Assembly (NCBI GenBank): GCA_965662465.1
Contig: CBFIIO010000016.1
Coordinates: 7,587-71,586 of the forward strand
From: Planctomycetota bacterium
Lineage (GTDB): Bacteria > Planctomycetota > UBA1135 > UBA2386
Direction of reading: 5' to 3'
Length of the DNA: 64,000 bases
The notes under the pieces are model-generated. The model worked only from the letters and a program-made list of their open reading frames with translations, was not told where the DNA came from and did not search any database. Positions 2,612-25,225 of this stretch are shown here, piece by piece. Positions within the stretch are counted from its first letter, which is position 1, and the number at the start of each line of letters is the position of its first letter. A program made the position numbers and the translations under genes.

Positions 2612-5600
2612 ATGATGGCAGACAAGAACCTGATGATTGTAGACCCCACAAACTCGACTCGTTCGGTATCAGTATTCGCACTAGTGACTGCGCTGGCTTT
2701 GCTCGTCTTTACGGGATGTAGCGGAAGCGGTGGCGGGGTTGCTGACGCTACACCTGGCGGCACCGTTCAGCCGGAGTTGAGCTTGGTCGAATATGGACGG
2801 CTCGTGGATGTCTACGGTCTCCAAGTGACGCCCGAAGGTTCTGCAATCACGTTGTTCCGTGATGATGTGATGGTTGGCGGTGACATCCAGGATCAGCGGC
2901 CGACTGAGTCGAATCTGACCGATGCCGAAATCCTCTACGACTTCATCGCTGCCGATCCGGACACTCTGCAGCCGCGTTTGTTCATTCCACGTGAGGTGAC
3001 AAGTAGCGAGTTCCAGGATGCTTTCGATGCACTGGATGATCAACTTCGTTCGGTTTCTCCGATGCTCTTCGGTGAAGGTGGTCCTGGGGTTCCGTTCTCG
3101 GTTGTTCCGCGCAATGCAGCGGTTCGGTTGTCGTTCTCTGCACCACTAGGAATCGATGACTCGTTCTTTGTTGAGCGCGACGCAAACGGTTCGGTGGTTT
3201 CGCTACGGAACACGGAAGCCGTGCAGCTGTTGCGTATCGTCGATGATCCGACGCAGCCAAATGGTTTCGTGCCGCTAGCAGTGCGCGTCGTAGTGGGGGG
3301 GGATCAACTCATTCTCGATCCAGTCTTGTTGGGTACGGAAGGTCTGCAATACCAGACTTCCAACAACGCTGCCGGACTGCCTGCCTCACCAGATCAACTA
3401 GGTGCCAATATTCGCGTTGCGATTGCGCTGGAAGGGCCCCTCGCCATTCCTGGCTTGCGCGCCCAGACCACTGGCGGCCTGACCGGCCTGAACAACAGCG
3501 GTCGTAGTTCGGTCGTGCGCGACTTCCGCTCAGGTAACGAGTCAGATGACTCCTCTGATATCGCCCGCGGATTCGTTCGTGACCCATTGCCGTTACGGGT
3601 TGTCGGCGAGATTCCCATGTATCTCGAGCGAGTCGAGAACATCAATGCCTTCACGCAAGAAGTCACGGTCTACAAGAACTCGCTTTCTCACGAGATCGAC
3701 CGTGGCGATGTGTTGCGCTTTATCTCCGACAGTTCTGGCGTGCCGTTTGGTAGCTCTGAGGTCGTTGCCGACCCAGAAGATGACCGCGACAATCCGACGA
3801 TTCAGCATGTTCGCGTCCGCATTCGTCGCGTTGAGAATCTTGAGAATATCGACCCTAGCAATTTGCCGGGATACCCAGCGTCCTTGACGGAGCGTGAAGC
3901 ATGGTTGGTGCAAAATGCTCCGCGTGCCGTCGTGCTCGCAGAGTTCACTGCCGGTGGTGTCGCTGGGCGTGATGACCCGCGCAACTTCTTGTCCTTCACA
4001 CCGGGGCCACTTGAGCTCAACGGTTACAAGCCACAGCAAAACGAGTTCGTATCACCGTTCGCTGGCTCGATCGTTCGCTTCACCAAGCCGGTCGACATGG
4101 AGACCGTCAAGTGGGCCGACACGTTCTTCTTTGCGATGCGTGACCTCAGCACTGAGGACAGCATTGAAGAGTTTATCGCGAATCGGCCGACGGCGCTCGG
4201 CGTCGGGATGAATCCGGCGACTTTCGATCTTGCCAAATACCGTACGCCTTACCTGATTACGGCTCGCGTGTTTGATGAAGATGGGTCGCAAACGTCGTTG
4301 CGGCTACAGCCGACGACGGGCTTCTATCTCGATGACACGATGCGGAATGCTCCGGCTGGCGCAGACTACAGCTACTTCTTGCATCTGATTTCCGATTCCG
4401 ATGACGGCGGGATCCGCGACTTGGCCGGTAACCGGCTTGATCTGCAGGGACTCACTTCGGATCGCAGCAACAGCGTTGTGATCCCGTTCACCGTTGATAC
4501 CCGCATGAATGGCAACGAGCCCGTTTTTGCGGACAACTTGTCCGTGTCCATTGTTCGTCGCTTTGCGTCGCGGGATGAAGATGCGAACCCTAGCTACTTC
4601 TTGCCGTCTGAAGTGCAGCCAGCGAGCACTGGTTCGGTCGCTGCCGCATACCCTCTCGAAGACTTGTTTGGTGGTTTCATCTACGTAGATGGCAAACTCC
4701 TGGCTCGTCCGACAACGCGTATTCGGGTCACGGGCGATAACCTCAACCAGTCACCGGTGCAGCAGCAGCTAGCACCACCAAATCCGATTGGCACCCTGGC
4801 ATGGTGCCCGCAGTCGGTTGGTGGCGAATTGCAGGTGGGATCTAACAGTGCCAATAACTTGGTCAACGCCGGGATTCAAAACCCGCTCAACCCATATGGG
4901 TGTCGTTTGCAGACGCTATGGCGCGAAGTTGACCTAAGTCTCTCCCGTTCTGACCCGTTTGATTTCAATCTCGATATTGAGCAGATGTATTGGGCTCCCT
5001 ACACGGGAACCAACCTCTCCTTTGACGAGTTTGACCGTGTTTCCCTTTACCTTGGCCACAGTGAATACCGGCCGATCCCTTGTGTCGGTGACTTTAGCTC
5101 GCTGCCGTCGCTGCCAGGATCGGGCCTGCAAAACCAATTCGAGGGCAACTTTGCATGGAACCCGTTGCCAACGGGCACCGGCAACACGGCTGAGAGTCAG
5201 TCACCTCGTAGTGCTGCCTACATAGATAAGGCGATGACGATCGATCCTTCGGACGTTGTCTTTGAAATCAACGGCGTCAATCGCTTCTTGCCGCTGCCTG
5301 AGTTCCAGGAACCCTACTTTGTTTACCGCGATGAAACGGTGGTCGAGCAAGGTGGGCGTGCGGACGCAAGTTCCGGCTCGGACTTGAGCGGCCAGGTTTC
5401 TTCTCCATATGTCCTGTCGCCATTCAGTATGGGGCAGGGGCGTCGTTGGGTTGATCCTGATGGCCAGCCAGGCAACGTCCGCTTCGTCAGTTCGTTCTGG
5501 AACGATTCTCGTAACCGCCAACTCAGCAGCGCTGGATCCCTCGACAACTATACGGGTGGCCTTGTTGGCAATGTCGCTTTGCCTTTGCTCGCTGACTTCT

Positions 5601-6538
5601 GGACCTACTGCGATTCGTCCGAATTGCCAGCCGGCGGAGGGTATGTTGCTCTGGGCACCAACGGCTGGCAGACAGCGGTCACGGTCCAGTCGGATCCGCG
5701 GCCAGCTTTCCGAATCCTGAGTGCCGGTCGCTCGGCTACGCAGACTCAGCCAGCGCTGTGCCGCTCACCAGGCGATCCCCAGTGGAATCAGGCATCTGGC
5801 GGCTTCACCCCGACAGGTCAGGCGACGTCAGCTGCTGACAATACGTTTTATTGGATCATGATGGACGTGCTGAAGCGTCAGAGTGTCATCACCAACGGCT
5901 TCGTCGATCTTTACAACCCTCACCGTGTGCCGGAAGGCTTTGTGGATCCACGCCTTGGGCCGTTCTACATCGTCGGTGGCGTGCCTAGTGCTCCGCAGGA
6001 CGTGCTGCCGACGTTTGCCTACGAGTTTGATCCACCGCTGTCGCAGTTGCCGTCAGGCACTTCTCTGGTGCCGCAATTCCGGGGCGCGAGTGCTGTTGAC
6101 AGCACGCCGTTCTACTGGAACGCCTGGATCAACTCTGTGACGCCGTTGTTCCCAAATCCGAACCTGCCGGTGAATCCAGGGTTTGATACCAGCATGCGTG
6201 AGCAGTTGAAGCCTACCGCTGACAACTTTGCGCTCGATCCTTACAAGGCTGGCGACGCGCATATGCGCAAGTGGGACACGCGTCCGATCCCGGGTTCAGG
6301 GCAAGCACGCAACTGGTGGACTTACCTATATAACCGCACGGTAACGACCTACGTAGAGAACCCGAACGACTTGATGGACCCGACCTACACGTTGCAGTTT
6401 GCGGGGCCGAACGAGACGTTCAACCCGCAGGACATCCGTTACGTGAACTGGCGCTTCATCACTAGCAACAACACGAGTGCCAACCCGCCAGTCTCGCCTT
6501 CTATCGAGACCTTCTCCTTGTCGTTCCGCTGGCAGTAA
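2612..6538 (+). CDS. Giant secreted lipoprotein (about 1300 aa), Ig-like-domain family type I; paralog of 10566..14552
   Basis: Long ORF (track start 2498; likely start 2612, 2615 or 2633). Lipobox LLVFTG-C followed by an SG linker. Ig-like segments (IVRFTKPVD...GGIRDLAGNRL). Many motifs shared with 10566..14552. Confidence 0.8.
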   Translation: MMADKNLMIVDPTNSTRSVSVFALVTALALLVFTGCSGSGGGVADATPGGTVQPELSLVEYGRLVDVYGLQVTPEGSAITLFRDDVMVGGDIQDQRPTESNLTDAEILYDFIAADPDTLQPRLFIPREVTSSEFQDAFDALDDQLRSVSPMLFGEGGPGVPFSVVPRNAAVRLSFSAPLGIDDSFFVERDANGSVVSLRNTEAVQLLRIVDDPTQPNGFVPLAVRVVVGGDQLILDPVLLGTEGLQYQTSNNAAGLPASPDQLGANIRVAIALEGPLAIPGLRAQTTGGLTGLNNSGRSSVVRDFRSGNESDDSSDIARGFVRDPLPLRVVGEIPMYLERVENINAFTQEVTVYKNSLSHEIDRGDVLRFISDSSGVPFGSSEVVADPEDDRDNPTIQHVRVRIRRVENLENIDPSNLPGYPASLTEREAWLVQNAPRAVVLAEFTAGGVAGRDDPRNFLSFTPGPLELNGYKPQQNEFVSPFAGSIVRFTKPVDMETVKWADTFFFAMRDLSTEDSIEEFIANRPTALGVGMNPATFDLAKYRTPYLITARVFDEDGSQTSLRLQPTTGFYLDDTMRNAPAGADYSYFLHLISDSDDGGIRDLAGNRLDLQGLTSDRSNSVVIPFTVDTRMNGNEPVFADNLSVSIVRRFASRDEDANPSYFLPSEVQPASTGSVAAAYPLEDLFGGFIYVDGKLLARPTTRIRVTGDNLNQSPVQQQLAPPNPIGTLAWCPQSVGGELQVGSNSANNLVNAGIQNPLNPYGCRLQTLWREVDLSLSRSDPFDFNLDIEQMYWAPYTGTNLSFDEFDRVSLYLGHSEYRPIPCVGDFSSLPSLPGSGLQNQFEGNFAWNPLPTGTGNTAESQSPRSAAYIDKAMTIDPSDVVFEINGVNRFLPLPEFQEPYFVYRDETVVEQGGRADASSGSDLSGQVSSPYVLSPFSMGQGRRWVDPDGQPGNVRFVSSFWNDSRNRQLSSAGSLDNYTGGLVGNVALPLLADFWTYCDSSELPAGGGYVALGTNGWQTAVTVQSDPRPAFRILSAGRSATQTQPALCRSPGDPQWNQASGGFTPTGQATSAADNTFYWIMMDVLKRQSVITNGFVDLYNPHRVPEGFVDPRLGPFYIVGGVPSAPQDVLPTFAYEFDPPLSQLPSGTSLVPQFRGASAVDSTPFYWNAWINSVTPLFPNPNLPVNPGFDTSMREQLKPTADNFALDPYKAGDAHMRKWDTRPIPGSGQARNWWTYLYNRTVTTYVENPNDLMDPTYTLQFAGPNETFNPQDIRYVNWRFITSNNTSANPPVSPSIETFSLSFRWQ

Positions 6539-7019
6539 TCGGCGTTGCTGCAAGGATTCATTCCACAACAGCCGGGCTTTGGTTCGGCGCCCGCGGCAAC
6601 CAACCGCTGGCAATGTTCTCTGTAATCATTTCGACCATTCCCCACCGATCGCGTGCGTCCGTAACGCTTTCGGTTTGATCGTTTCAACCCCTCCAAATCC
6701 CGAACCCCCGAAGGCTTCCGCCTTTTCCTTCTGCAACTTCCCAGTATCGAGTTTCACCATGTGACAACTGGTGATTACGATTCCAACCATCCCTCAGTTG
6801 CGAGCGGGCATCTCCGAGGATGCTCATTCCTGACCTGAGACTGGAAAGGCTGCGGCAGACAATGCTTTTGGAAACCTTCTCCCGAACTCAAATGGTGTCT
6901 TCTTTCAATCACTTGGCTATCTGCCACGCGTTTGGAATCGTTCACCAGATAGCCCTGAATAGCGAAGATCTATCGACGAGCGTCGACTTCGCGGCTAAGC
7001 GGGCCTGAAAACTAGCGCC

Positions 7020-10000
7020 ATGATTCGAAAGTCCTCGATCCGGTTGTCTTCTTTAGCAGCTCTGGCTGTATTTGCTGCTTGTTCAGGCGGCAGTTCGTCC
7101 GATGGGTCGAGCACAGGCGGGGACTTTATTGTTCTCAGCACGGAGCCGAGCGACAACGCCCAGCTCTTTCTGAATGATCCGATCCGGATCGACTTCAGTA
7201 ATCCTGTGGATCTGAGCTCGGTCGACTTGACGACCTTTAGTTTCCAGGTGTTCGACCAAATCGGAAACTCGGTAGCCGAACCTGTCGCTGGCTCCTTCCG
7301 CTTAGGAGTTAGTCCTGGCGATACTGAGGTGGGTCGCCGCCTTGAGTTTGTGCCAGTATTGCCGACTAACGACCTTTTCACGAACGGCGGTTTCCGTCCT
7401 GGCCGCACCTACATGGTTCAGCTGGTCGGCGGTAGCCAAGTCAACAACACGGTCATTCGGGATGCCTCCGGACGAGGCTTGGATCTGCCGCAAAGCTTCC
7501 AGTTTTCGACGGCCGACGGCACCGCCCCTGGTCAGCTTTTCCGCAACACCGCGGGTGGCGGTCCGAAGCGCACTGGCTTTGAGATCACTCCGACACCCGA
7601 CACAACCGGTGTCGTCCTGAACAAACTCGGTAATCCGCCGGTCGAGTTGCGTCTGAAGTTTGACCAGCCGCTGAACCCTTCGAGTTCCAACGTGCCGGTC
7701 GCGATCGTGACCGACCCGTTGTTGCGTAACAGCAATAGCCGTGGTCGCGTCTTCGTCGAATACGACGATCCGGAGTTGGGTAACAACATTTGGATCCCAG
7801 CAGACGTCGAACTCGAGTTCAACGGCATCGATGGTTCCACGCTGGTGCTCCGGCCGCTCGGAGTCATGCCAAACAACGCGTTGGTCCGCGTGGTCGTCGA
7901 GCGAACTCTCGAAGACATCTCGGGCGAGTCGAACGTCGCTAACGTTGCTTATGAGCGTGTCTTTGGCTCCTTCGAGACGAAGCGGGCTTACGAGCAGCAG
8001 TTCGACGGCATCGTTGATAACTTCCTAGCGACGTCGAATGTTGACCTGAACGCGGCATTCTCTGAGCCGCTTGGCGAGGTTGGTCCAGGTTACTTGAAGG
8101 CTGGTTTCGACTTCGAGGGCACTGTGACTGGTGCAGTCTTCGAGCCGACGGCACCAGAGACGATTCTGAATACGAACTTCACGCTCGTGAACCCGCAGAA
8201 CGGTTCTCCGTTCAACGTCTCTGGGGGAGTCTTCAACTTCAACAGAGTGACCATCCCGGCCGGCAAGGTCGTCCGTGGTCAGGGCACCAACCCGATGGTG
8301 TGGCTGGTTGCAGGCACGTTCGATGTTGCTGGCGTATTGTCAGTGCGCGGCGGAGATGGCCAGAGGGTCAACACCTCGGGTAATGCCAATGTCGCCAAGG
8401 CCGGCGGCGCTGGTGTTTGTGGCGGCGGCGATGGTGGAGATGGTTCCCCGAGTAGCGTTGCGCGTGACCTGGCTGGCAGCACCGGTAAAGGCCCGCAGCA
8501 GGTTGTTGGCTTAGGTGGCGCTGGTGGCGTTTTGTCGTGCTCGGCTGGTTGTGCCCGCGGTGCCGGCGGCGGTGGCGGTTCCTTGGCGACTCAGGGTGAT
8601 CCTAACTACAAGCAGAAGATTGCCGCATCGGGTACTGCTACTCCTCTAAACCCGTTTGCGATCTTCCAGCAGCAAAACGGCACTGGTGGTAATGGCTGTG
8701 CCGGCATTGCCGGATCGGTGACGCGAAACCTCGAGGGTGGTGTGCCCGGTCCAACGGTGTTCGTCGATGCCCGTAACGACAATAACTTCTGGGGGATTGG
8801 CGTGCGCTTTGACCAAAGCCTCCGGATTACCGGTGAACTTGCCGTGCCCACGGGCGGCGGCGGCGGCGGCGGTGGCGGTGACCTCTCCTATAACTCTAAC
8901 TGTGGAGTCGAAGACCCCAACTTCGAGAACGATAGTTCCGGCGGCGGCGGTGGTGGTGGCGGTGGTGTCCTCATTGTTAAGGCGCTTGGTCCGATCATCA
9001 TTCGTGAAACTGGCACGATCTCTGCCGACGGTGGTAGTGGTGGTGGTGGGGAGCCGTCGAGTTCTTCAACCGCTGGTGGCGGTGGTGGCGGCGGTGCCGG
9101 CGGCATGGTTGTGCTGATGTCTGCCGACAGCATCGAGATCAATGCTCGCGGCAACACCTACGCGGCTAACGACTACGACTTCTCGATCTCTGCCGATGGT
9201 GGCGTTTGCGTTACTGGGTCCCAGCCGCCGATCATTCAGGGCAAGTATCCTGCCAGTGGCCAGATCATTGGGACATCGTTCCGGACGAACTACGACTCTG
9301 TTCCGCTTGGCGGCTTTGGAGGCATGGGAATCGTGCAATTGATGGCGCCTCCCGGAGATCCTGCAACCACAACGGATGGCACGAACACGATCCTCGACGA
9401 CAACATTCAGGTTGTTTTCAACGGTGCCAACGTCAGTGGAGCGCAGAAGCAAGCTGTTCTTGCTTGGCGCGGCTTCCCTAACGAATTTGGACAAGGCGTA
9501 GATGACTCGGGTGCACTAATCACGGCGCCAATTGACTCGCAAGGTGACATTCGGCCAGCTCCGACGTTGTTGCCAACGGCATTCGCCCGCAAGTCTCGCT
9601 TGCGCTCAAAGTGGATTGACACTGGCGCAACTGCTCGTCGTGAATTGGTTGTTCCGGACGAACTGCCGCGAGGAATCGTCACCAGTGGTGGCGTCCAGTC
9701 GGGGCCCACTTACGAGTGGTCTGGTGTTGAGGCGAGCCCTGGATTGGCTCTCGGTTATGCTGATCATGTCGTCGCGCAAGGGCGCGCATCGGTGCTCTAT
9801 CCGACGGTCGTCACGGCGACATCGATCTTGACAAGGAATGCGAACTCGACGTTCCTGGGTCGTCCTGCATATCGCTTGCTGTTGGCGCAGTCCTCGCTTG
9901 GCTCGACCAATGATCGCTATGTGCAATACGAGGCAGAGATGCTGGCTGGTGATGGCTCGGTTGCAGCTAGCTATCGAATCCTCTCGCACACCGCGAACGA

Positions 10001-10412
10001 GTTGGTGTTGTCACCAGAGAATGGTGCCCTCGACTTGAGTGCCGTTGATGTGCGTGTCGTTGCAAAGTTCTTCGATGTGGTGACCGATGGCCTGCCAGGC
10101 CTTGGCGGTAGCTACATCGGCACTGCCGGCGCTCGTATCCCAGTCGCGAACATTCGCTTCGGGTTTGCATTCCACCAAAATCCTCAGGATGCAAATGCTG
10201 ACCGCTACCCGGCGGCCCCAAATACCTTTGCTTACGACCTGACGGACCCGGCGGTGCAGGAGCAGATTCGTGCTCTCGGCGCGACCTTTGTGCAGTGGGA
10301 CATCTTGTTTGATACCGGATTTAAGACGGTCCCTCAGGATGAACCACCGGCTCTCAACCCGGAGACACCTCGTCCCGAACTGCGGTTCCTCCGTCTACCT
10401 TTCCGCTTTTAG
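7020..10412 (+). CDS. Giant lipoprotein (1130 aa) with Big_5-like Ig domains and a polyglycine-rich region, type II
   Basis: Lipobox AVFAA-C. Big_5-like pattern IRIDFSNPVDLSSV...LEFVP...PGRTYMV...IRDASG. Multiple G5-G9 tracts. Ends LRFLRLPFRF. Confidence 0.8.
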   Translation: MIRKSSIRLSSLAALAVFAACSGGSSSDGSSTGGDFIVLSTEPSDNAQLFLNDPIRIDFSNPVDLSSVDLTTFSFQVFDQIGNSVAEPVAGSFRLGVSPGDTEVGRRLEFVPVLPTNDLFTNGGFRPGRTYMVQLVGGSQVNNTVIRDASGRGLDLPQSFQFSTADGTAPGQLFRNTAGGGPKRTGFEITPTPDTTGVVLNKLGNPPVELRLKFDQPLNPSSSNVPVAIVTDPLLRNSNSRGRVFVEYDDPELGNNIWIPADVELEFNGIDGSTLVLRPLGVMPNNALVRVVVERTLEDISGESNVANVAYERVFGSFETKRAYEQQFDGIVDNFLATSNVDLNAAFSEPLGEVGPGYLKAGFDFEGTVTGAVFEPTAPETILNTNFTLVNPQNGSPFNVSGGVFNFNRVTIPAGKVVRGQGTNPMVWLVAGTFDVAGVLSVRGGDGQRVNTSGNANVAKAGGAGVCGGGDGGDGSPSSVARDLAGSTGKGPQQVVGLGGAGGVLSCSAGCARGAGGGGGSLATQGDPNYKQKIAASGTATPLNPFAIFQQQNGTGGNGCAGIAGSVTRNLEGGVPGPTVFVDARNDNNFWGIGVRFDQSLRITGELAVPTGGGGGGGGGDLSYNSNCGVEDPNFENDSSGGGGGGGGGVLIVKALGPIIIRETGTISADGGSGGGGEPSSSSTAGGGGGGGAGGMVVLMSADSIEINARGNTYAANDYDFSISADGGVCVTGSQPPIIQGKYPASGQIIGTSFRTNYDSVPLGGFGGMGIVQLMAPPGDPATTTDGTNTILDDNIQVVFNGANVSGAQKQAVLAWRGFPNEFGQGVDDSGALITAPIDSQGDIRPAPTLLPTAFARKSRLRSKWIDTGATARRELVVPDELPRGIVTSGGVQSGPTYEWSGVEASPGLALGYADHVVAQGRASVLYPTVVTATSILTRNANSTFLGRPAYRLLLAQSSLGSTNDRYVQYEAEMLAGDGSVAASYRILSHTANELVLSPENGALDLSAVDVRVVAKFFDVVTDGLPGLGGSYIGTAGARIPVANIRFGFAFHQNPQDANADRYPAAPNTFAYDLTDPAVQEQIRALGATFVQWDILFDTGFKTVPQDEPPALNPETPRPELRFLRLPFRF

Positions 10413-14552: not shown

Positions 14553-14567
14553 GCCGCCATTAGCCTG

Positions 14568-14645: not shown

Positions 14646-14835
14646 ATTGCGTCGTGCGCAACATCCATTCGGGCCGCCCAACGGGTGGCCCGTTTGTCAT
14701 TGTGCATTCGGTGTCAATGGTCGCTGACGCAAGGTGCCGGTTGACTGGGCGATCCGGGAGCATTTCGACAGACGGCACGTTTATGAGTTGGCTTTTGGGT
14801 ATGTGACTCTCTCTCCGATACCATGAGCAACACAC

Positions 14836-16695: not shown

Positions 16696-16855
16696 CGATT
16701 GCTGGAATCGGTTCGGCGGGACCGTATACTGTTGGCAGCCAACGGGCGGTCAGACGCATCATAGGTCAGTATGATGTGGCGGCCATAGGGGTCGCGTCCC
16801 ATCGGCAAACGGTCAGTCAGTAGCTCGCGCGCGCGCGGCTTTCGCAAGGTTGTAC

Positions 16856-17830: not shown

Positions 17831-17954
17831 TTCATCTTTTCTATCCACGAGTTGCGCTGTGCATGATTGTGCGCATGTTCGTTGCTCTGTATTTCATTCG
17901 TTCGCTTGTTCTCGACAGTCTGTGTTCGACAGCTGTATCCGTCTGGGAGGCACC

Positions 17955-18587
17955 ATGAAGTTCCGTAAGGCATTGCTCATTCTTTCGCTCGTAGCTACGT
18001 CGCTTGCGACTAGTTGCACCACTCGTTACCAGGACATGTTGAGGGATCGTGATAATCAGATCCGTTCGCTCAGTGGCGATCTGGCGCGCATGCGCGGTGA
18101 GAACGAAGAGCTGCAAAACCGTCTGGTATCGACGCCGAGTCCGGCACCGATGGCAGAATCAGCCGATCTCCTGACCGATCTTCGGCGTGATCTCGGCGAC
18201 GATGCTGATGTTAGCTACCGCCGTGGTCGCATCAGTATCGGCGTCAACAATCGGGTCACCTTTGACTCTGGTAGCACACGCTTGAAGGCTTCGTCTCACA
18301 AGGTGCTGCGCAGTGTTGCCGCGGTGTTGAAGTCGCAGTTTGAAGGCCGTCGGTTCTTCATTGAGGGCCACACCGATACTGATCCAATTAGCAAAACGAA
18401 GGACAAGTATTCGAGCAACCGCGACTTGTCGTCAAAGCGCGCTGATGCAGTAGCTCAATATCTCGTGTCACAAGGCGTATCTGAGTCGGCGATTGTTGTT
18501 GTTGGTTATGGCGAGTTCGATCCTTTGGACTCCAAAAGGAAGGCAGCTAATCGTCGTGTAGAGATCGTCGTCGGCGACATGCTCTAG
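17955..18587 (+). CDS. OmpA/MotB-family peptidoglycan-binding lipoprotein with coiled coil
   Basis: RBS ggagg, then MKFRK...ATS-C lipobox, a coiled coil, and IEGHTD...NRDLSSKRADAV...GYGE...NRRVEI. The track start 17631 is over-extended. Confidence 0.88.
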   Translation: MKFRKALLILSLVATSLATSCTTRYQDMLRDRDNQIRSLSGDLARMRGENEELQNRLVSTPSPAPMAESADLLTDLRRDLGDDADVSYRRGRISIGVNNRVTFDSGSTRLKASSHKVLRSVAAVLKSQFEGRRFFIEGHTDTDPISKTKDKYSSNRDLSSKRADAVAQYLVSQGVSESAIVVVGYGEFDPLDSKRKAANRRVEIVVGDML

Positions 18588-19302: not shown

Positions 19303-20418
19303 ATGGTCTCTATGGAAGAACTGCTGAACCTGATGGTTCAGCGTGGTGGTTCTGACCTTCATCTTTCCGTTGGTTCCCCGCCACGGATCCGTGTCGACGG
19401 CAAGTTGATCGATACGGAATACGAACCTCTGATGCCGGAGGCGACGAAGAAACTCGTGTACTCAGTGCTCGGCGCCGACCAAGTTGCCAAGTTCGAGAAG
19501 AATCTCGAACTCGACTTCTCATTTGGAGTCGCGAATCTTGGTCGCTTCCGTACTAACGCATTCGTGCAGCGCAGCACAGTAGCCGCTGTCTTGCGCGTGA
19601 TCCCGTTCGAGGTTCATGACTTTGACGCGATCGGATTGCCGGTTTCTGTTTGCGAGCAAATCTGCAGTCTGCCGCGCGGGCTGGTTCTTTGCACAGGCTC
19701 AACCGGTTCTGGCAAATCGACGACCTTGGCCTCCATGGTCAATTACATCAACGAGCAGCGGCAGGGTCACATTGTCACGATTGAAGATCCAATCGAGTTT
19801 TTGCATCGCAATAAGGGCTGCCTCATCAATCAGCGTGAAGTCGGTGGGGATACGCACGGATTTGGAAAGGCACTGAAGTCGGTCTTACGTCAAGACCCCG
19901 ACGTCGTCCTGGTCGGCGAGATGCGTGATCTTGAGACTATCGAGGCGGCGCTGACTTTGGCTGAAACTGGTCACTTGACGTTTGCGACACTGCATACATC
20001 CGACGTTACACAGACAGTTAATCGCATCGTCGATGTGTTCCCTGCGCATCAGCAGCAACAGATCCGCACGATGCTGTCTTTCACATTGCAGGCAATCATT
20101 TGTCAGCAACTAGTGCCGAAGCAGCACGGCAAGGGACGGGCTTTGGCTGCTGAGGTGATGATTGCGAATCCGGCAATCCGCGCTTTGGTTCGCGATAACA
20201 AATCGCATCAGATCATGTCGATTCTTCAGACCAGTGCACAGTTAGGCATGAAGACCATGAACCAGTCGTTGTTCGAGCTTTATCGCGCTGGCACGGTTTC
20301 GTTCGAGGATGCGATTGCGCACACCAGTGACGAAGGCGACTTCCAACGTTTGATGGAGCGGGCAGGAATCAGTAACGCTGGTTCTACCTTGGTCGGAAGT
20401 GGGAGGCGTTCGCTCTAA
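19303..20418 (+). CDS. pilT: Type IV pilus retraction ATPase
   Basis: SDLHLSVGSPP, Walker A GSTGSGKST, TIEDPIE, LRQDPDVVLVGEMRD, GHLTFATLH, and an AIRNLIRE-like motif AIRALVRD. Confidence 0.95.
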   Translation: MVSMEELLNLMVQRGGSDLHLSVGSPPRIRVDGKLIDTEYEPLMPEATKKLVYSVLGADQVAKFEKNLELDFSFGVANLGRFRTNAFVQRSTVAAVLRVIPFEVHDFDAIGLPVSVCEQICSLPRGLVLCTGSTGSGKSTTLASMVNYINEQRQGHIVTIEDPIEFLHRNKGCLINQREVGGDTHGFGKALKSVLRQDPDVVLVGEMRDLETIEAALTLAETGHLTFATLHTSDVTQTVNRIVDVFPAHQQQQIRTMLSFTLQAIICQQLVPKQHGKGRALAAEVMIANPAIRALVRDNKSHQIMSILQTSAQLGMKTMNQSLFELYRAGTVSFEDAIAHTSDEGDFQRLMERAGISNAGSTLVGSGRRSL

Positions 20419-20421
20419 GCC

Positions 20422-22137
20422 ATGACTCAGTTCGCTAAAAAACTTCGAGGCATTCTCGAGAAGGCAGGCAAGCTTGAAACCGGTGCTGGCGACACATTGC
20501 TAGCTGAGGCGCGAGCTCAAAAGCGTCCGTTCACCGAGATCCTAGTTAAGAAGGGGGTCGCGACCGAACAAGACCTCGTTGCGTTGATTGCTAAGGCCGC
20601 CAATATCCCGCCGATCGACTTGTCAAAATTGACCCTGAACAAAGAGGTTCTTGAGTCAGTTCCAGAAGACGTCGCGCGGGACTACGGCGTGTTTCCGGTC
20701 GATAAGATCGGTTCGATCATTACGATTGCGGTCGCTAACCCATTCGATGTTCTCAAGTTCGATGACATTCGGATCGTTACTGGTTGCACGCTACGGCTCG
20801 TCGTTAGCACGGAAGAAGAGATTGAGCGCACGCGCGGTAAGAGCTACCAGCAAGAAAGTGAGAGCGTTGATGGCATCCTCGACTCATTTGACGATGCTGA
20901 CGTCTCTCTAAAAGAGGACGCTGATGAAGATGACGGCACGGACCTCTCTGCCATCAGTGATGAAGATTCGCCAGTCGTCAAGTTGGTGAACAAGATGATC
21001 CTGGATGCCTGCAACCAAGGCGTTTCAGACATCCACATCGAACCCTTTGAGAAGAAAGTGATCGTTCGATATCGCAAGGATGGCACCATGGCGGAGGCGA
21101 TGACCTTGCCGAAGCGGATGCAAAACAACATCACTTCGCGCATCAAGATCATGTCAAAGCTGGATATCGCCGAGAAGCGAAAGCCCCAAGATGGCAAGTT
21201 CCAGATGAAGATTGGCCGTAAGGCCGTCGATTTCCGGGTGTCGATTTTGCCAGTTGTCTGGGGTGAAAAGACCGTCTTCCGGATTCTTGACTCAAGCAAC
21301 CTTGCAACTGACATCAAGGAACTCGGTTTCGAAAAGCAGTCAATGGCAGACTATCTGTGGGCCTGTTCGCAGCCCTACGGAATGATTCTTGTCACTGGTC
21401 CAACGGGCTCAGGAAAGTCTACGACTCTCTACTCCGCGGTCCGACATATTGCATCGCCTGACATCAATCTGGTAACGGTTGAAGATCCAGTTGAATACCA
21501 GTTAGAAGGCATCAACCAGGTTCCTGTTAATCCAAAGGCTGGACTGACTTTTAGTGGCGCGTTGCGATCGATTCTTCGTCAAGACCCTGACGTTGTGTTG
21601 CTCGGTGAGGTTCGTGATGCCGAAACGCTTGAGATTGCAGTGAAGGCTGCGCTGACGGGTCACCTAGTTCTTAGCACGCTGCATACAAACGATGCCCCTT
21701 CGACGATCACTCGTATGGTCGACATGGGCTGTGATCCGTTCATGGTCTCTAGTTCGACATTGCTGATCTGTGCTCAGCGACTTGGACGGCGGTTATGTCC
21801 GAGTTGTAAGAAGCCGGTGGATATTCCGAAGGCTGCCCTGCTCAAACTCGGCTACCGCGAGGAAGACTTTGAAGATCCAGACATCCCGATGACTCTGTTT
21901 GAGCCTGCTGGGTGTCCGCGTTGCAACAAGGGATACAAGGGGCGGTTTGCGCTGCTCGAGACGATGCGCATGACTGAGGCCGTGAAGCGCATGGTTGTTG
22001 ACGGCGCACACTTAGCTGACATCAAGAAGCAGGCTCTCGCCGATGGCATGTTGACTCTTCGTCGCTGCGGCTTGTTGAACGCTGCTCGTGGTGTCACCAG
22101 TTTGCAGGAAATTGAGGCGCAGACGATGGCCGACTGA
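20422..22137 (+). CDS. pilB: Type IV pilus / T2SS assembly ATPase PilB/GspE
   Basis: SDIHIEP, LDIAEKRKPQDG, Walker A GPTGSGKST, TVEDPVE, LRQDPD, GHLVLSTLH, and tetracysteine CPSC...CPRC. Confidence 0.93.
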   Translation: MTQFAKKLRGILEKAGKLETGAGDTLLAEARAQKRPFTEILVKKGVATEQDLVALIAKAANIPPIDLSKLTLNKEVLESVPEDVARDYGVFPVDKIGSIITIAVANPFDVLKFDDIRIVTGCTLRLVVSTEEEIERTRGKSYQQESESVDGILDSFDDADVSLKEDADEDDGTDLSAISDEDSPVVKLVNKMILDACNQGVSDIHIEPFEKKVIVRYRKDGTMAEAMTLPKRMQNNITSRIKIMSKLDIAEKRKPQDGKFQMKIGRKAVDFRVSILPVVWGEKTVFRILDSSNLATDIKELGFEKQSMADYLWACSQPYGMILVTGPTGSGKSTTLYSAVRHIASPDINLVTVEDPVEYQLEGINQVPVNPKAGLTFSGALRSILRQDPDVVLLGEVRDAETLEIAVKAALTGHLVLSTLHTNDAPSTITRMVDMGCDPFMVSSSTLLICAQRLGRRLCPSCKKPVDIPKAALLKLGYREEDFEDPDIPMTLFEPAGCPRCNKGYKGRFALLETMRMTEAVKRMVVDGAHLADIKKQALADGMLTLRRCGLLNAARGVTSLQEIEAQTMAD

Positions 22138-22198
22138 TCAGGCGAATTGCAGTCAGCTAGATCAGCAAGTCAGTGAGAGATAACTAGGGGAATAGGAA

Positions 22199-23443
22199 AT
22201 GGCTACCAAGTTCAAATTTGAGGCACGCGATGCGACCGGCAAGGTTGTTAAGGGAGCCATTACGGCATCATCTCAATCTGAGGTGGTGGCCGAAGTACGT
22301 CGGCGTCAATTGACTCCGCTTGAGATCAACAAGTCACTGGGTCTCGGTAGCCTGTTTTCGAAGTCGGTCGGGCCGAAATCAAAGAAAGGTCTCGCCAAGA
22401 GAGCGTCTGCCAAGAAGGGCGAGCTTGAGATCTTTACGCGTCAGCTCGCGACGATGCTTAGCGCTGGTATTCCGATGCTGGAAGCTCTTGAGATAATGGC
22501 GGATCAGGCCGAAAGCCCTGGGTTCGCCTTTTGTCTAGACAAAGTCGTTGAGTCGATCCGCAATGGTTCGGACTTGTCCAAGGCGATGGAGCCGCACAAG
22601 AAGGTCTTCAGCCACATCTATGTCAGCATGATTCGGGCTGGTGAGGTCTCTGGCCAGATCGACATCATTCTTCAGCGTTTGGCTGATTACCTAGAGGCCG
22701 CTGCGCACCTTCGCAACGAAATCAAATCGGCGATGACCTATCCGGTGATTTCGCTGATATTGGTGATTGGCATCGCATCATTTTTGATGATTGGCATCGT
22801 GCCGTCATTCAAACCGGTGTTCGAGTCACTCGAAGTTGAGTTGCCGGCATTGACCGTTGTGATCATGGACATCGCGTTCTTCATGCGCGACTACTGGTAT
22901 GTGATCTTTGGTGGCATGGCAGCTTTGATCTTTGGCACCATGGCTGCGGTTAAGACTGAGAAGGGTTGCTATGTGAAGGATGTGATCATCCTACGCATCC
23001 CGGTCTTTGGAGTCCTGTTCAAGAAGGTTGCCCTTTCACGCTTCGCTCGCACATTTTCGACACTGATAAAAAGTGGTGTTCCGATTTTGGGTGCGATGGA
23101 AATTGTGTCTGATACCTCAGGCAACAAAGTCATCTCTGGAGTCGTAGATCGAGCTCGAGACAGTGTTCGTCAAGGGGACAGCTTATCTGACCCCTTTATG
23201 TCGTCTTCAGTGTTCCCTCCAATGGTCGTTAAGATGATGGCCATTGGTGAGCGTTCCGGCGCACTTGACGCCTTGCTCGAGAAGATCGCTGAGTTCTATG
23301 ACCAGCAAGTTGAAGCCGAGGTTAAGGGGCTTACCGCGATGATCGAGCCAATCATGATTGCCATTATGGGCATCATCGTTGGGGGCATCGTGTTGGCCGT
23401 GTTCTTACCCATCTTCAAGCTGCAAGAAACGCTGTCGGGTTGA
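22199..23443 (+). CDS. pilC: Type IV pilus inner-membrane platform protein PilC (GspF family)
   Basis: FTRQLATMLSAGIP, GEVSGQID, KSAMTYP, RFARTFSTLIKSGVP, GERSGALD, and MIEPIMI...FLPIF. Confidence 0.95.
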   Translation: MATKFKFEARDATGKVVKGAITASSQSEVVAEVRRRQLTPLEINKSLGLGSLFSKSVGPKSKKGLAKRASAKKGELEIFTRQLATMLSAGIPMLEALEIMADQAESPGFAFCLDKVVESIRNGSDLSKAMEPHKKVFSHIYVSMIRAGEVSGQIDIILQRLADYLEAAAHLRNEIKSAMTYPVISLILVIGIASFLMIGIVPSFKPVFESLEVELPALTVVIMDIAFFMRDYWYVIFGGMAALIFGTMAAVKTEKGCYVKDVIILRIPVFGVLFKKVALSRFARTFSTLIKSGVPILGAMEIVSDTSGNKVISGVVDRARDSVRQGDSLSDPFMSSSVFPPMVVKMMAIGERSGALDALLEKIAEFYDQQVEAEVKGLTAMIEPIMIAIMGIIVGGIVLAVFLPIFKLQETLSG

Positions 23444-23534
23444 TCGCGTCATTATGCGATTGGCATCGCCACTAGAGCTTTTGCGTGTAGCTCGACAGAA
23501 CTGAACGCGCTGGAGTCAGGCAAAAAGGGAATCC

Positions 23535-24413
23535 ATGAATCAATCAATCAGCCGTGTGCTGCTCTATGGCAGTGCAGCGCTTGCTATTTCTGGGATCGCG
23601 ATTACGTGGGCTACAACGTCGACGGATGCCGACGTAGTGACACTGCTGAGCAGCGCTGACTCACAGTTGCGTTTGGCGCATGCGATGCCTGTTTTCGACT
23701 CGGAAGGGAATCGATTGGATTCACGCGATGTCATGATTGTCAGTGCGATTGAGCAGCTGGTAAAGGTTGAGCGCAATGAGCCTGGATTGGCTGTTACTGC
23801 CGAGTTCCGCGGATTTGCACACATGCTGCAGGATGAATTCGCTGCGGCTGCCGCGTGTTATCAAGAAGCTAGCACGCGCGGTGATTGCAGTGACGAGCAA
23901 CGGGATGTCCTGACCTTTAATCAAGCGCGCATGCTGGTTCAGGCTGATCAGCCAGATCAGGCGCTGGCATTGTTTGCTGCAAATAAAGTGGCTCTTGATG
24001 CGCGCTACGGCCATCAGCGTCGACTAGAGGAGGCCACAATCCTAAGTGGCTTGAACAGGTCGGCGGAGGCTGTTGTTCGCCTTGACATTATTAGGTCCGA
24101 CGAGAGCGCATCGCCCATGGCACTGCTGCAAGCAGGCCGTGTGTATACGAGTCTTCACTGTTTAGAAGCCGCGGAAGATGTGCTCATGCGGACCCGAAAA
24201 GAACTTGTCATAGCTGATTACTACCTTGCTCAACTCAAGTTGTGCCAGGGGCAAACCGATATCAGCATGGAGTTGTTGGAGCGTGTCTCGAAGGCGCGGC
24301 CGATCGAGGTGAGGCGGATGCTTCTTGATGAAGCGAACGCCTGGTCGGCTGTCTTGACAGATGCGCGCTTCCAAGAGCTCTCGAAGGTGGTTCCAGCGTC
24401 CCCTGGGCGCTGA
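23535..24413 (+). CDS. TPR-like helical repeat protein with N-terminal signal/anchor
   Basis: Hydrophobic N-terminus and repeated A..CYQEA / QARMLVQ...ALALF / YYLAQLKL...S.ELL helical pairs. Lies between pilC and the pilin. Confidence 0.65.
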   Translation: MNQSISRVLLYGSAALAISGIAITWATTSTDADVVTLLSSADSQLRLAHAMPVFDSEGNRLDSRDVMIVSAIEQLVKVERNEPGLAVTAEFRGFAHMLQDEFAAAAACYQEASTRGDCSDEQRDVLTFNQARMLVQADQPDQALALFAANKVALDARYGHQRRLEEATILSGLNRSAEAVVRLDIIRSDESASPMALLQAGRVYTSLHCLEAAEDVLMRTRKELVIADYYLAQLKLCQGQTDISMELLERVSKARPIEVRRMLLDEANAWSAVLTDARFQELSKVVPASPGR

Positions 24414-24499
24414 TCTCAGCTTTGAAGTAGTCGAGTGATAGGGGAAACGAACGCAGCTAATTCGGCTGCATCAATCAAAGGTTGTTCATGGAGAATCAA

Positions 24500-25225
24500 A
24501 TGTCTAAGCGGGAACAGGGCTTTACGCTCATCGAACTCATGATCGTTGTTGCGATCATTGCCATCATTGCATCAATTGCTATTCCGAACCTTCTCAGTGC
24601 GCGTCTCAACGCCAACGAGTCGGCCGCAATCGCGACGTTGAAGAACATCGCATCAGGCCAATCGCAGCTGCAGGCTTCGGGCACCATCGACGTCAACGGC
24701 AACGGCCAAGGCGAATACGGCTTCTTCGGCGAATTGTCTGGCCGCATCGCTGTTCGTGGCAGCACGCTTGTGGTTACCCCACCAGTGCTTTCGGCTGCTT
24801 TCGGTAACGTTGGAACTGCTGGCACGCCACAAGAGTCTCGCGTTTCGCGTTCGGGCTACGTCTTCCAGATGTTCCTCCCAAGTGTTACTGCAGCAGGCCT
24901 TGCTGAAGATGCAGGTGGTGGTGACTTGACCAACGACAACGGTGTCGATCCGGGTCAAAGCGAAGTGCTTTGGTGCTGCTACGCATGGCCATCCACGGTT
25001 GGCAGCAGTGGCAACCGCACGTTCTTCATCAATCAGTCTGGCGACGTTCTCTCGACGAACGCTGCAGCTGGTGGCATGGCCAGTCGCTACAGCAACTCCG
25101 GTAGTGTGCTTCCGACTTTCGATGCTGCCTACACTGGTGCAACGATGGATACTGCCGTTGGCATCAACGCAGCAACCACCGGTGTCCCGGCCAATGATGG
25201 CAACACCTGGGTCGTAGTCCAGTAA
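24500..25225 (+). CDS. Type IV pilin-like protein (large, 241 aa) with class III signal peptide
   Basis: MSKREQG|FTLIELMIVVAIIAIIASIAIPNL with E at +5. RBS ggag before ATG 24500. Followed by a strong hairpin. Confidence 0.92.
   Translation: MSKREQGFTLIELMIVVAIIAIIASIAIPNLLSARLNANESAAIATLKNIASGQSQLQASGTIDVNGNGQGEYGFFGELSGRIAVRGSTLVVTPPVLSAAFGNVGTAGTPQESRVSRSGYVFQMFLPSVTAAGLAEDAGGGDLTNDNGVDPGQSEVLWCCYAWPSTVGSSGNRTFFINQSGDVLSTNAAAGGMASRYSNSGSVLPTFDAAYTGATMDTAVGINAATTGVPANDGNTWVVVQ

What the first reader, a model, noticed from the sequence alone, without database searches (positions are those of the whole stretch)
2612..25225. Candidate undescribed surface system: tandem giant Ig/polyglycine lipoproteins heading a type IV pilus locus
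Seen: four co-oriented lipoproteins (about 1300, 1130, 1328 and 619 aa, all with lipoboxes and Big_5-like Ig repeats, in the order type I, II, I, II) are followed on the same strand by pilD, an OmpA-like lipoprotein, pilT, pilB, pilC, a TPR protein and a large pilin, closed by a strong terminator. Two more paralogs lie at 34.4-39.9 kb. Known: T4P loci usually carry PilY1 adhesins and minor pilins, not arrays of kilo-residue lipoproteins. Inference: these proteins form a lipid-anchored surface coat, adhesin or scaffold that works with the pilus (attachment, gliding or prey/particle binding), or an envelope-spanning channel in place of the usual PilQ/PilMNOP partners. I recognise no named family for them.
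Basis: partly seen in the sequence, partly recalled or inferred. Interest (0 to 1): 0.85.

Follow-up and report, generated by a model that had tools for sequence, protein, structure and literature searches.

The report
Clade-wide giant envelope lipoproteins beside pilus genes
Four very large, undescribed lipoproteins sit upstream of type IV pilus genes in every member of the Saltatorellus/OM190 order of Planctomycetota, but they persist in relatives that have lost the pilus, so they look like a core cell-envelope module, not pilus parts.

Summary
The gene layout is real. Four co-oriented lipoprotein genes (A 2612-6538, B 7020-10412, C 10566-14552, D 14836-16695) precede pilD, an OmpA-like lipoprotein, pilT, pilB, pilC, a TPR-like gene and a large pilin, closed by a strong hairpin.

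They form two families. Type I is A and C. Type II is B, D, the E/F pair at 34.4-39.9 kb and a further copy on contig C7.

Type I occurs in 334 of 339 genomes of one GTDB order (104/104 high-quality genomes) and in 0 of 285 other Planctomycetota sampled. That order contains the cultured Saltatorellus, Rohdeia and Engelhardtia.

The block GTPase-pyrB-I-II-II'-pilD-OmpA-(EF-G-like)-pilTBC-pilin is conserved across the order. The pilus link is not obligate:
- 25 of 25 genomes of one family lack the PilC orthologue, and the two checked in detail also lack orthologue-level PilB, PilT and pilin yet keep the lipoproteins with pilD and OmpA.
- The genome has its own pilM-to-pilQ operon.
- Type II paralogues stand in unrelated contexts.
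- A conserved hairpin separates C from D.

AlphaFold models are confident, compact and all-beta, with no whole-chain analogue in the PDB.

Best reading: a lineage-defining lipid-anchored envelope or surface module of unknown function, historically nested with pilus genes.

The parts
852..2195 (+). pyrB (aspartate carbamoyltransferase with a PyrI_C zinc domain); the conserved left-hand anchor of the syntenic block
   Evidence: Pfam OTCace_N, OTCace and PyrI_C; NCBIfam asp_carb_tr. It lies upstream of type I in all families examined.
2612..6538 (+). A: type I lipoprotein (1308 aa), paralogue of C
   Evidence: ORF and lipobox VFTG|C. 25% identical to C over the full length. No Pfam or NCBIfam family. 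Orthologues 45-83% identical in the 29 complete loci.
7020..10412 (+). B: type II lipoprotein (1130 aa) with N-terminal Ig-like (Big_5) domains, a Gly-rich beta-solenoid-like region and C-terminal beta-sandwich domains
   Evidence: Big_5 34.4 bits. Glycine runs invariant across 52 orthologues. AF2 pLDDT 83.3, pTM 0.77. Foldseek matches only the Ig-like domains.
10566..14552 (+). C: type I lipoprotein (1328 aa)
   Evidence: Lipobox LSA|C. 301 homologues, the top 120 at 49-81% identity and all unnamed. AF2 of residues 129-1328: pLDDT 88.8, pTM 0.79. No real PDB match.
14670..14692 (+). Terminator-like hairpin between C and D
   Evidence: 10-bp stem with 9 GC pairs. dG -23.1 kcal/mol, z -3.85. 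The C-D spacer has the strongest hairpins in relatives: median -32.8 against -22 to -26 for the other spacers. No metatranscriptome contig bridges it.
14836..16695 (+). D: short type II' lipoprotein (619 aa); the fastest-evolving of the four
   Evidence: Lipobox MSA|C. hhalign to the B profile: probability 96% over B residues 1-446. Median orthologue identity 44%.
16850..17830 (+). pilD prepilin peptidase
   Evidence: Pfam A24_N_bact 3.7e-29 and Peptidase_A24 1.2e-19. It stays adjacent to D' in all families examined, including f3.
17955..18587 (+). OmpA-like peptidoglycan-binding lipoprotein with an N-terminal coiled coil
   Evidence: Pfam OmpA 3.6e-22. NCBIfam YiaD/MotB/Pal-like hits, all below cut-off. 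Lipobox ATS|C.
19303..20418 (+). pilT retraction ATPase
   Evidence: T2SSE 2.2e-43. Orthologues 70-91% identical within the family.
20422..22137 (+). pilB extension ATPase
   Evidence: T2SSE 2.1e-134 plus MshEN.
22199..23443 (+). pilC platform protein
   Evidence: T2SSF x2, 2.8e-69. The orthologue is present in all families tested except f3 and f100.
23535..24413 (+). TPR-like protein with an N-terminal membrane segment
   Evidence: Only weak TPR_2 and TPR_END hits, below cut-off. Conserved in position within family f1.
24482..25225 (+). Large T4a-type major pilin (247 aa)
   Evidence: N_methyl 8e-10. Partial match to Myxococcus-type PilA. Highest metatranscriptome contig depth of the region, 28.
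25266..25308 (+). Intrinsic-terminator-like hairpin with a U-rich tail, closing the pil operon
   Evidence: dG -34.3 kcal/mol, z -5.19.
34408..37056 (+). E: type II paralogue
   Evidence: Big_5 1.4e-12. hhalign to the B profile: probability 99% over B 54-743. In cultured relatives an E/F-like gene lies just beyond the pilin; in f3 it lies downstream of the short prepilin.
37171..39855 (+). F: type II paralogue; its stop overlaps the start of an amidohydrolase gene by 4 nt
   Evidence: 37% identical to E. Big_5 1.1e-10. Overlap with ORF 39852-41078. The same 4-nt overlap occurs in G138.

Best explanation
A-D belong to two undescribed families of large, compact, all-beta lipoproteins. Type I is A and C. 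Type II is B and D, together with E, F and a copy on contig C7.

Together they form a lineage-defining core cell-envelope module of the Saltatorellus/OM190 order of Planctomycetota.

Inferred mechanism:
1. The proteins are exported by Sec, lipidated at the lipobox Cys and anchored in the outer membrane.
2. There they assemble as a type I / type II hetero-oligomeric layer. Surface exposure is more probable than a periplasmic location.
3. The layer is built from SbsA-type Ig-like domains, a Gly-rich beta-solenoid and lectin-like beta-sandwiches.
4. The neighbouring OmpA-like lipoprotein may tie the layer to peptidoglycan.

The layer would serve as a structural and/or glycan- or particle-binding coat.

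The adjacency to pilD and pilTBC-pilin is an ancient, conserved gene neighbourhood. It may reflect co-localisation or PilD-dependent export. The lipoproteins are not obligate parts of the pilus machine.

Shown here: the families, their distribution, the synteny, independence from the T4aP genes, and confident folds.

Inferred, not shown: lipidation, location, hetero-oligomerisation and function.
For: Distribution:
- Type I is universal in the order: 334/339 genomes, 104/104 high-quality genomes, 147/147 genera. This includes genomes of only 1.5-2 Mb.
- It is absent from 285 other Planctomycetota genomes sampled.
- Exact-sequence look-up shows that three genomes of the order are Rohdeia mirabilis Pla163 (Pla163_28640), Saltatorellus ferox Poly30 (Poly30_54620) and Engelhardtia mirabilis Pla133 (Pla133_38880).

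Independence from the pilus:
- All 25 f3 genomes and one f100 genome have PilC hits only at paralogue level (31-38%), against 59-66% in the other families tested.
- G138 and G286 also lack orthologue-level PilB, PilT and pilin. They keep GTPase-pyrB-I-I-II-II'-pilD-OmpA-EFG-like.
- The genome has its own pilM...pilQ operon.

Constraint on sequence:
- Median orthologue identity is A 68%, B 62% and C 59%, about the same as PilD (59%) and OmpA (63%). This is unlike fast-evolving adhesins.

Structure:
- AF2 gives pLDDT 88.8 / pTM 0.79 for C and 83.3 / 0.77 for B. These are rigid compact bodies, not beads on a string.
- The best whole-chain PDB hit is the S-layer protein SbsC.
- Big_5 is the SbsA Ig-like domain (UniRef names).

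Transcription:
- A conserved strong hairpin follows C and the spacers are long.
- In a marine metatranscriptome of a ~93-95% identical relative, contig depth is A-C 5-8, E/F 3-7, pilin 28, pilD-pilC 0-2.6 and neighbours 0-1.
- This suggests separate and comparatively strong expression of the lipoprotein genes.
Against: - No experiment or prediction locates the proteins. Periplasmic versus surface is open.
- S-layer proteins usually evolve fast. These do not.
- The SbsC match is weak (E 2e-4, TM 0.1).
- In every family that has the T4aP, the lipoprotein genes are next to it, with type II genes on both sides of the pil genes. A functional tie to the pilus or to PilD is therefore not excluded.
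- D-pilD-OmpA stay together even in f3.
- The expression evidence comes from one run, at contig level, from a related strain.
- Retention of D'/pilD/OmpA in f3 was read in only two genomes.
Confidence: 0.5

Rival explanations
1. Pilus accessory module. The lipoproteins work with the T4aP as a lipid-anchored adhesin or as a scaffold around the pilus exit site. Family f3 keeps them for a secondary role.
For: - The order I-II-(I)-II'-pilD-OmpA-pilTBC-pilin is invariant in 64 species-level loci of family f1.
- The same block is present in the f2 and f4 genomes read directly and in all three cultured Saltatorellaceae.
- Type II genes flank the pil genes on both sides.
- OM190 members are reported as particle-associated (PMC5607371).
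- This clade, unlike other Planctomycetes, has PilT (bioRxiv 10.1101/817700).
Against: - The lipoproteins are retained in 25/25 f3 genomes that lack the PilC orthologue. In the two f3 genomes read in detail, PilB, PilT and pilin are also missing.
- The block also includes pyrB and a GTPase.
- A hairpin and long spacers separate A-C from D and the pil genes.
- Transcript depth differs between the lipoprotein genes and pilD-pilC.
- Type II and extra type I copies occur in unrelated contexts.
- No homology to any known T4P component.
Confidence: 0.22
2. Cargo of a PilD-dependent type IV filament machine. Like PulA, SslE or InvL, the large lipoproteins are carried across the outer membrane and displayed on the surface by a secretin/pseudopilus system. 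This is why they are kept beside the prepilin peptidase gene. The reading is compatible with the coat reading.
For: - D'-pilD-OmpA adjacency is the one link kept in all families examined, including f3, where a short prepilin gene and an E/F-like lipoprotein still follow.
- The genome has several secretins and a gspD-E-F-like set.
- Precedent: SslE is a large lipoprotein whose secretion needs the PppA prepilin peptidase and T2SS-beta (PMC3707838). T2SS also places PulA and InvL on the surface (PMC12802150).
Against: - The adjacent machine is a T4aP (PilT and a large pilin), not a T2SS.
- No GspC/L/M or minor pseudopilins lie nearby.
- No catalytic domain was detected in A-D.
- No direct evidence of secretion.
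Confidence: 0.18
3. Envelope-spanning channel that replaces PilQ and PilMNOP.
For: No pilMNOPQ genes lie in the window next to pilBCD.
Against: - Contig C9 carries pilM (PilM_2, 3.3e-54), two small pilN/pilO-sized ORFs without a Pfam match, a pilP-position ORF and a secretin with N0 and Secretin domains (2.2e-38), followed at a distance by a PilT paralogue.
- The genome holds six secretins in all.
- The AF2 models show short-stranded beta-sandwich and solenoid domains, not a membrane barrel.
Confidence: 0.03

Closest known systems
T2SS-displayed surface lipoproteins (PulA of Klebsiella, SslE/YghJ of E. coli, InvL of Acinetobacter)
   Same: Lipoproteins of about 1000 aa or more, encoded beside type IV filament machinery genes. 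SslE secretion needs the PppA prepilin peptidase (PMC3707838; PMC12802150). Here D is followed directly by pilD and a small lipoprotein.
   Different: Those proteins carry known catalytic or adhesin domains and use a T2SS. A-D have no recognisable catalytic domain. They sit beside a T4aP that has PilT. They form two co-conserved families that are universal in one order. Export dependence is untested.
S-layer proteins with SbsA/SbsC-type Ig-like (Big_5, PF13205) domains
   Same: Big_5 domains in B, E and F, and weakly in C and D. The best whole-chain Foldseek hit of C is SbsC. All-beta multidomain build; comparatively well represented in a metatranscriptome.
   Different: A-D are lipid-anchored, not SLH- or charge-anchored. 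They are strongly conserved (59-68% median identity), where S-layer proteins vary. The models are compact (pTM 0.77-0.79). The structural match is weak (TM 0.1). No lattice evidence.
Known T4aP outer components: PilQ secretin, PilP lipoprotein, PilF/PilW/Tgl pilotins, TsaP, PilY1
   Same: Envelope lipoproteins encoded beside pilBCD-type genes; an OmpA-like peptidoglycan binder is present, in the way of TsaP/FimV-type anchors.
   Different: No sequence or fold similarity. Five to ten times larger than PilP or the pilotins. The genome has its own pilM...pilQ. The lipoproteins persist without the T4aP.
Polyglycine-II / glycine-rich beta-solenoid modules (phage gp38-type adhesin tips, ALK/LTK glycine-rich domain)
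   Same: B has invariant Gly runs (G9, G9, G7) alternating with short hydrophobic strands. In the AF2 model this stretch is mostly unassigned by DSSP, with pLDDT 56-88.
   Different: Foldseek against the PDB and viral libraries returned only Ig-like matches, plus one weak 'glycine-rich domain' phage protein (E 2.2e-4, low TM). The PGII reading is neither supported nor excluded. A, C and D lack such runs.

Membership tests
Bacterial lipoproteins (Lgt/LspA substrates) | N-terminal signal peptide ending in a lipobox with an invariant Cys | tested here: met
   A VFTG|C, B FAA|C, C LSA|C, D MSA|C, OmpA-like ATS|C. The Cys is nearly invariant in orthologues. Lipoboxes found in most orthologues.
Bacterial lipoproteins (Lgt/LspA substrates) | Actual acylation and membrane anchoring | not testable with these tools
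   Needs lipid labelling, globomycin sensitivity or mass spectrometry in a cultured relative.
Big_5 / SbsA Ig-like domain proteins (PF13205) | Pfam score above the gathering cut-off (23.6 bits) | tested here: inconclusive
   B 34.4, E 48.6 and F 42.7 bits pass. C 21.6 and D 18.3 bits fail. A has no hit. 8 of 45 type I members hit weakly.
T4aP machinery components | Homology to a known T4P protein family | tested here: not met
   No Pfam, NCBIfam or PDB match for A-D other than Ig-like domains.
T4aP machinery components | Conserved gene adjacency to pilB/pilC/pilD | tested here: met
   64 loci of f1; f2 and f4 genomes read directly; by proximity in G240 and G174; three cultured strains.
T4aP machinery components | Phyletic co-occurrence with the T4aP core genes | tested here: not met
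   Type I is in 104/104 high-quality genomes. The PilC orthologue is absent from 25/25 f3 genomes and one f100 genome. PilB, PilT and pilin orthologues are absent in G138 and G286.
Secretin/alignment-complex substitute | Absence of PilQ and PilM-P from the genome | tested here: not met
   Six secretins. A pilM...pilQ operon on C9: PilM_2 3.3e-54, Secretin 2.2e-38.
T2SS-displayed lipoproteins (PulA/SslE type) | Large lipoprotein encoded next to a prepilin peptidase and filament machinery genes | tested here: met
   D is followed by pilD after 155 nt. The adjacency is kept in all families examined.
T2SS-displayed lipoproteins (PulA/SslE type) | Secretion or surface display dependent on the machine | not testable with these tools
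   Needs mutants and surface-accessibility assays.
S-layer proteins | Structural similarity to solved S-layer proteins | tested here: inconclusive
   SbsC is the top hit, but at E 2e-4, probability 0.33-0.41 and TM 0.06-0.10.
S-layer proteins | Self-assembly into a 2-D lattice on the cell surface | not testable with these tools
   Needs EM or cryo-ET of cultured Saltatorellaceae.
Polyglycine-II bundle proteins | Fold match to a solved PGII domain | tested here: inconclusive
   None among the top 50 PDB or viral Foldseek hits.

The most novel reading that the evidence does not exclude
Type I and type II lipoproteins, with the OmpA-like anchor, build a previously unknown lipid-anchored envelope lattice or machine specific to the Saltatorellus/OM190 lineage. 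It is exported or positioned with the help of PilD-dependent filaments. It underlies the clade's unusual envelope behaviour (shape-shifting, 'trunk' formation, particle attachment).
Probability: 0.15. Interest if true: 0.85.

Novelty: new variant of a known kind. Interest (0 to 1): 0.55.

Why it matters
The Saltatorellus/OM190 lineage is a deep, globally distributed and mostly uncultured branch of Planctomycetota. Its isolates change shape despite having peptidoglycan, and the molecular make-up of its envelope is unknown.

This work finds two families of proteins of about 600 to 1,300 residues that every good genome of the order carries and no other sampled planctomycete has. They are retained even in genomes of 1.5-2 Mb.

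They have confident folds without a whole-chain analogue among solved structures. They are well represented in a marine metatranscriptome.

They are prime candidates for a lineage-specific envelope structure. Their presence in three cultured, fully sequenced strains makes the question experimentally tractable.

The work also corrects a tempting over-reading of gene neighbourhood: conserved synteny with pilus genes here does not mean dependence on the pilus.

Tried and rejected
- **Replacement of PilQ/PilMNOP.** Rejected: six secretins and a pilM...pilQ operon on C9.
- **Known family by sequence.** Pfam, NCBIfam and PDB profile searches gave only Big_5.
- **Known fold.** Foldseek of both AF2 models against the PDB, and of B against viral structures, matched only generic Ig-like domains. 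SbsC matched weakly. Domain-wise searches were not possible because model coordinates are not exposed.
- **gp38/ALK-type polyglycine-II bundle in B.** Not supported by the top hits, and not excluded.
- **Block inserted between pyrB and pyrC.** Rejected: the gene after F is a TRZ/ATZ or aminofutalosine-deaminase-like amidohydrolase, not a dihydroorotase.
- **PilY1 (PF05567) in the genome.** Uninformative, because the control genomes did not ring either.
- **Rfam.** Nothing in the window.
- **Metatranscriptomes X21-X23.** They matched only the GGC-repeat (poly-Gly) stretch at 8.8-9.1 kb, from other organisms.
- **Consensus promoter scan.** Fewer sites than in shuffles.
- **A first profile (A1) missed type I in G208.** A broader profile (A6) and tblastn found it.
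- **Names for distant type I homologues.** Only 'hypothetical' or 'Ig-like domain-containing'.


Full report
**1. The observation**

The window (contig C16:7587-71586 of a 4.55-Mb, 91-contig MAG) carries four long + strand ORFs exactly where stated: A 2612-6538, B 7020-10412, C 10566-14552 and D 14836-16695.

Each begins with a signal peptide ending in a lipobox cysteine: VFTG|C, FAA|C, LSA|C and MSA|C. That cysteine is nearly invariant in orthologues.

The downstream genes are, by Pfam and NCBIfam:
- pilD
- an OmpA-family lipoprotein
- pilT, pilB and pilC
- a weakly TPR-like protein
- a 247-aa T4a-type prepilin

A hairpin of -34.3 kcal/mol with a U-rich tail follows the pilin.

A and C are full-length paralogues at 25% identity. 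B and D share their first ~446 residues (hhalign probability 96%). E and F at 34.4-39.9 kb are 37% identical to each other. They belong with B (hhalign probability 99% over B 54-743).

- Big_5 passes Pfam's threshold only in B, E and F.
- Polyglycine runs are a feature of B, and faintly of E/F.
- The A-D genes are separated by long spacers of 154-482 nt.
- A strong hairpin lies between C and D.

**2. Two families, one order**

C has 301 detectable homologues. The best 120 are 49-81% identical over the whole length, and all are unnamed proteins of Planctomycetota MAGs.

A scan of one genome per GTDB species returned 64 loci. Every locus long enough shows the same order: GTPase, pyrB, A, B, C, D, pilD, OmpA, (EF-G-like), pilT, pilB, pilC, TPR, pilin.

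Across 300 genomes spread over the phylum, type I was found only in the window's order and in none of 285 other genomes.

With a broader profile (A6), 334 of 339 genomes of that order have it. That is 104 of 104 high-quality genomes and 147 of 147 genera, including genomes of only 1.5-2 Mb.

A HMMER profile search of 1.84 billion representatives found 625 family members.

Exact-sequence look-up identified three closed genomes of the order:
- Rohdeia mirabilis Pla163 (Pla163_28640)
- Saltatorellus ferox Poly30 (Poly30_54620)
- Engelhardtia mirabilis Pla133 (Pla133_38880)

These are the cultured 'Saltatorellota' of SILVA clade OM190 (bioRxiv 10.1101/817700). One of the related MAGs is labelled CL500-15, an OM190 lineage reported as particle-associated (PMC5607371).

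**3. What the neighbourhood does and does not say**

Other families of the order keep the block but shuffle the lipoprotein genes:
- I-I-II-II' in G271 (f4) and in f3 (G138, G286)
- I-II-II' in G191 (f4) and in f2, including Rohdeia and Saltatorellus
- four tandem type I genes in Engelhardtia

In the cultured strains an E/F-like type II gene lies just beyond the pilin. The pil genes are therefore nested between type II genes.

Three facts warn against reading this as a pilus operon.

First, the conserved block also holds housekeeping pyrB and a GTPase.

Second, the lipoproteins outlive the pilus:
- All 25 tested genomes of family f3 and one of f100 have only paralogue-level PilC (31-38% identity). 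Every tested genome of f4, f99 and f101-f104 has an orthologue at 59-66%.
- In the two f3 genomes examined closely, PilB (38-40%), PilT (43-45%) and the pilin are likewise missing genome-wide.
- Their block reads GTPase-pyrB-I-I-II-II'-pilD-OmpA-EFG-like-short prepilin. In G138 an E/F-like type II gene and an amidohydrolase follow; in G286 an E/F-like gene is seen downstream by tblastn. Compared with the other families, pilT-pilB-pilC and the large pilin are absent from the block.

Third, family members occur elsewhere:
- a 51.5%-identical copy of B stands alone beside arg genes on contig C7
- E/F are translationally coupled to an amidohydrolase
- extra type I copies lie away from pil genes in G004, G071, G256 and Saltatorellus

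The idea that the lipoproteins replace PilQ/PilMNOP fails. The genome has six secretins. Contig C9 carries an operon in the pilM-N-O-P-Q arrangement in which pilM and the secretin are confirmed by Pfam.

**4. Transcription units and expression**

pilT through the pilin are tightly packed, with gaps of 4-92 nt. A-D are not.

The hairpin after C is -23.1 kcal/mol in the window (z -3.85). It is a conserved feature. In 58 relatives the best hairpin within 260 nt after the C stop has a median of -32.8 kcal/mol. The other spacers give -22 to -26.

A marine metatranscriptome holds contigs of a ~93-95% identical relative. Contig depths are:

| Region | Depth |
|---|---|
| pilin | 28 |
| A-C | 5-8 |
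| E/F | 3-7 |
| pilD to pilC | 0-2.6 |
| most neighbouring genes | 0-1 |

One contig spans the A-B junction. None spans C-D.

The uneven depth argues for RNA, not DNA carry-over. It also argues for lipoprotein transcripts that are separate from, and stronger than, the pil motor genes. This is one run at contig level, so it is weak evidence.

**5. Structure**

AlphaFold2 with orthologue alignments gave:
- C residues 129-1328: mean pLDDT 88.8, pTM 0.79
- B: mean pLDDT 83.3, pTM 0.77

Both are essentially all-beta. pTM values this high for chains of 1100-1200 residues imply compact bodies with fixed domain packing, not flexible strings.

Foldseek against the PDB found no whole-chain analogue. For C the best hits are the S-layer protein SbsC (E 2e-4, TM about 0.1), then lectin, CBM and capsid-P-domain-like jelly rolls at E 0.3-1. 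For B only the N-terminal Ig-like domains match: LdtMt2 domains A/B, CopC, and phage SbsA-Ig proteins. PDB sequence profiles found nothing.

B consists of:
- three Ig-like domains
- a stretch of short strands, followed by a region (residues ~440-730) with 27.8% Gly and invariant G-runs
- well-predicted C-terminal sandwiches

The most conserved stretch of type I (C ~770-930) carries the invariant D821, W827 and D838 and the nearly invariant E823 and H849. It could be a metal or glycan site. That is a lead, not a finding.

**6. Rate of evolution**

Median identity to the window's proteins across 29 complete loci:

| Protein | Median identity |
|---|---|
| A | 68% |
| B | 62% |
| C | 59% |
| D | 44% |
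| PilD | 59% |
| OmpA-like | 63% |
| PilC | 77% |
| PilB | 83% |
| PyrB | 82% |

Constraint spread over more than 1,100 residues is typical of proteins with many fixed contacts. It is not typical of variable adhesins.

**7. Interpretation**

The best-supported reading (about 0.5) is a lineage-defining, lipid-anchored envelope module made of type I and type II proteins. It is probably an outer-membrane or surface layer, and the adjacent OmpA-like lipoprotein may tie it to peptidoglycan.

Its position beside the T4aP genes is ancient but not functionally obligate.

Rivals:
- A genuine pilus accessory (about 0.22).
- Cargo displayed by a PilD-dependent secretin/pseudopilus machine, in the manner of PulA, SslE or InvL (about 0.18). 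This is compatible with a surface coat and would explain the unbroken D'-pilD link (PMC3707838, PMC12802150).
- A PilQ substitute (about 0.03).

**8. Novelty**

Both families are undescribed beyond 'SbsA Ig-like domain-containing'. The kind of thing, large Ig-domain envelope lipoproteins, is known.

What is new:
- the architecture
- the two-family pairing
- universality in one deep lineage
- the nesting with pilus genes

Three cultured strains carry the set, so the questions above are testable.

Noticed in passing
window 18588-19302 (OmpA-pilT spacer); L005:18113-20152 and relatives: A divergent EF-G-like GTPase (about 30% identical to the genome's own best EF-G match on contig C11) sits between the OmpA-like gene and pilT in about 27 of 39 related loci, including Rohdeia, Engelhardtia and family f3. 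It is missing in the window, which has a 716-nt spacer instead.
   Followed up: partly
G000 contig C7:61384-64965 (- strand): A stand-alone paralogue of B (51.5% identity over the full length) lies next to genes provisionally read, from position and N-terminal sequence only, as arginine-biosynthesis and regulator genes, far from any pilus genes.
   Followed up: partly
G000 contig C9:105801-110898 and 116258-117379: An operon in the pilM-pilN-pilO-pilP-pilQ arrangement (pilM and the secretin confirmed by Pfam; a short run of N sits in the pilO/pilP region) is followed by RNase E/G-like, L21-like and Obg-like genes and a PilT paralogue.
   Followed up: partly
family f3 and f100 of the order (e.g. 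G138:C9, G286:C19): A whole family of small-genome relatives (1.5-4.6 Mb) appears to have lost pilT-pilB-pilC and the large pilin. It keeps the lipoprotein block, pilD, OmpA, the EF-G-like gene and a short (131-172 aa) prepilin-like gene.
   Followed up: partly
window 39852-41078 and G138:C9:31472-32644: The stop of the last type II gene (F) overlaps by 4 nt the start of a TRZ/ATZ or aminofutalosine-deaminase-like amidohydrolase. The same 4-nt overlap recurs in a distant family, which suggests conserved translational coupling.
   Followed up: partly
Engelhardtia mirabilis G325:C1:5126494-5141440; Saltatorellus ferox G448:C1 (four sites): Type I copy number varies widely. Engelhardtia has four tandem copies. 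Saltatorellus has four dispersed copies, one of them with its own type II partner. Rohdeia has one.
   Followed up: partly
window 852-2195: PyrB carries a C-terminal PyrI zinc-domain match (PyrI_C 1.7e-08) plus about 45 further residues, i.e. a catalytic-regulatory fusion.
   Followed up: no
G000 contig C60:6799-20493: A second filament-type cluster: four prepilin-like genes, a 1742-aa protein, an 891-aa protein and a PilM-like gene. Contig C25 holds a pilB-pilT-pilB ATPase trio.
   Followed up: no
window 6558-6636: The metatranscriptome contig of a close relative lacks 77 nt of the A-B spacer, so this long intergenic region varies in length between strains.
   Followed up: no
window 8840-9105: The GGC-rich stretch that encodes the polyglycine runs of B attracts many unrelated metatranscriptome contigs with spurious 'joints'. 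Read-mapping here is unreliable.
   Followed up: no
window 26400-27683: An unannotated 427-aa ORF (only a weak DUF7242 hit) is one of the few neighbouring genes with clear metatranscriptome contig coverage (depth about 6).
   Followed up: no
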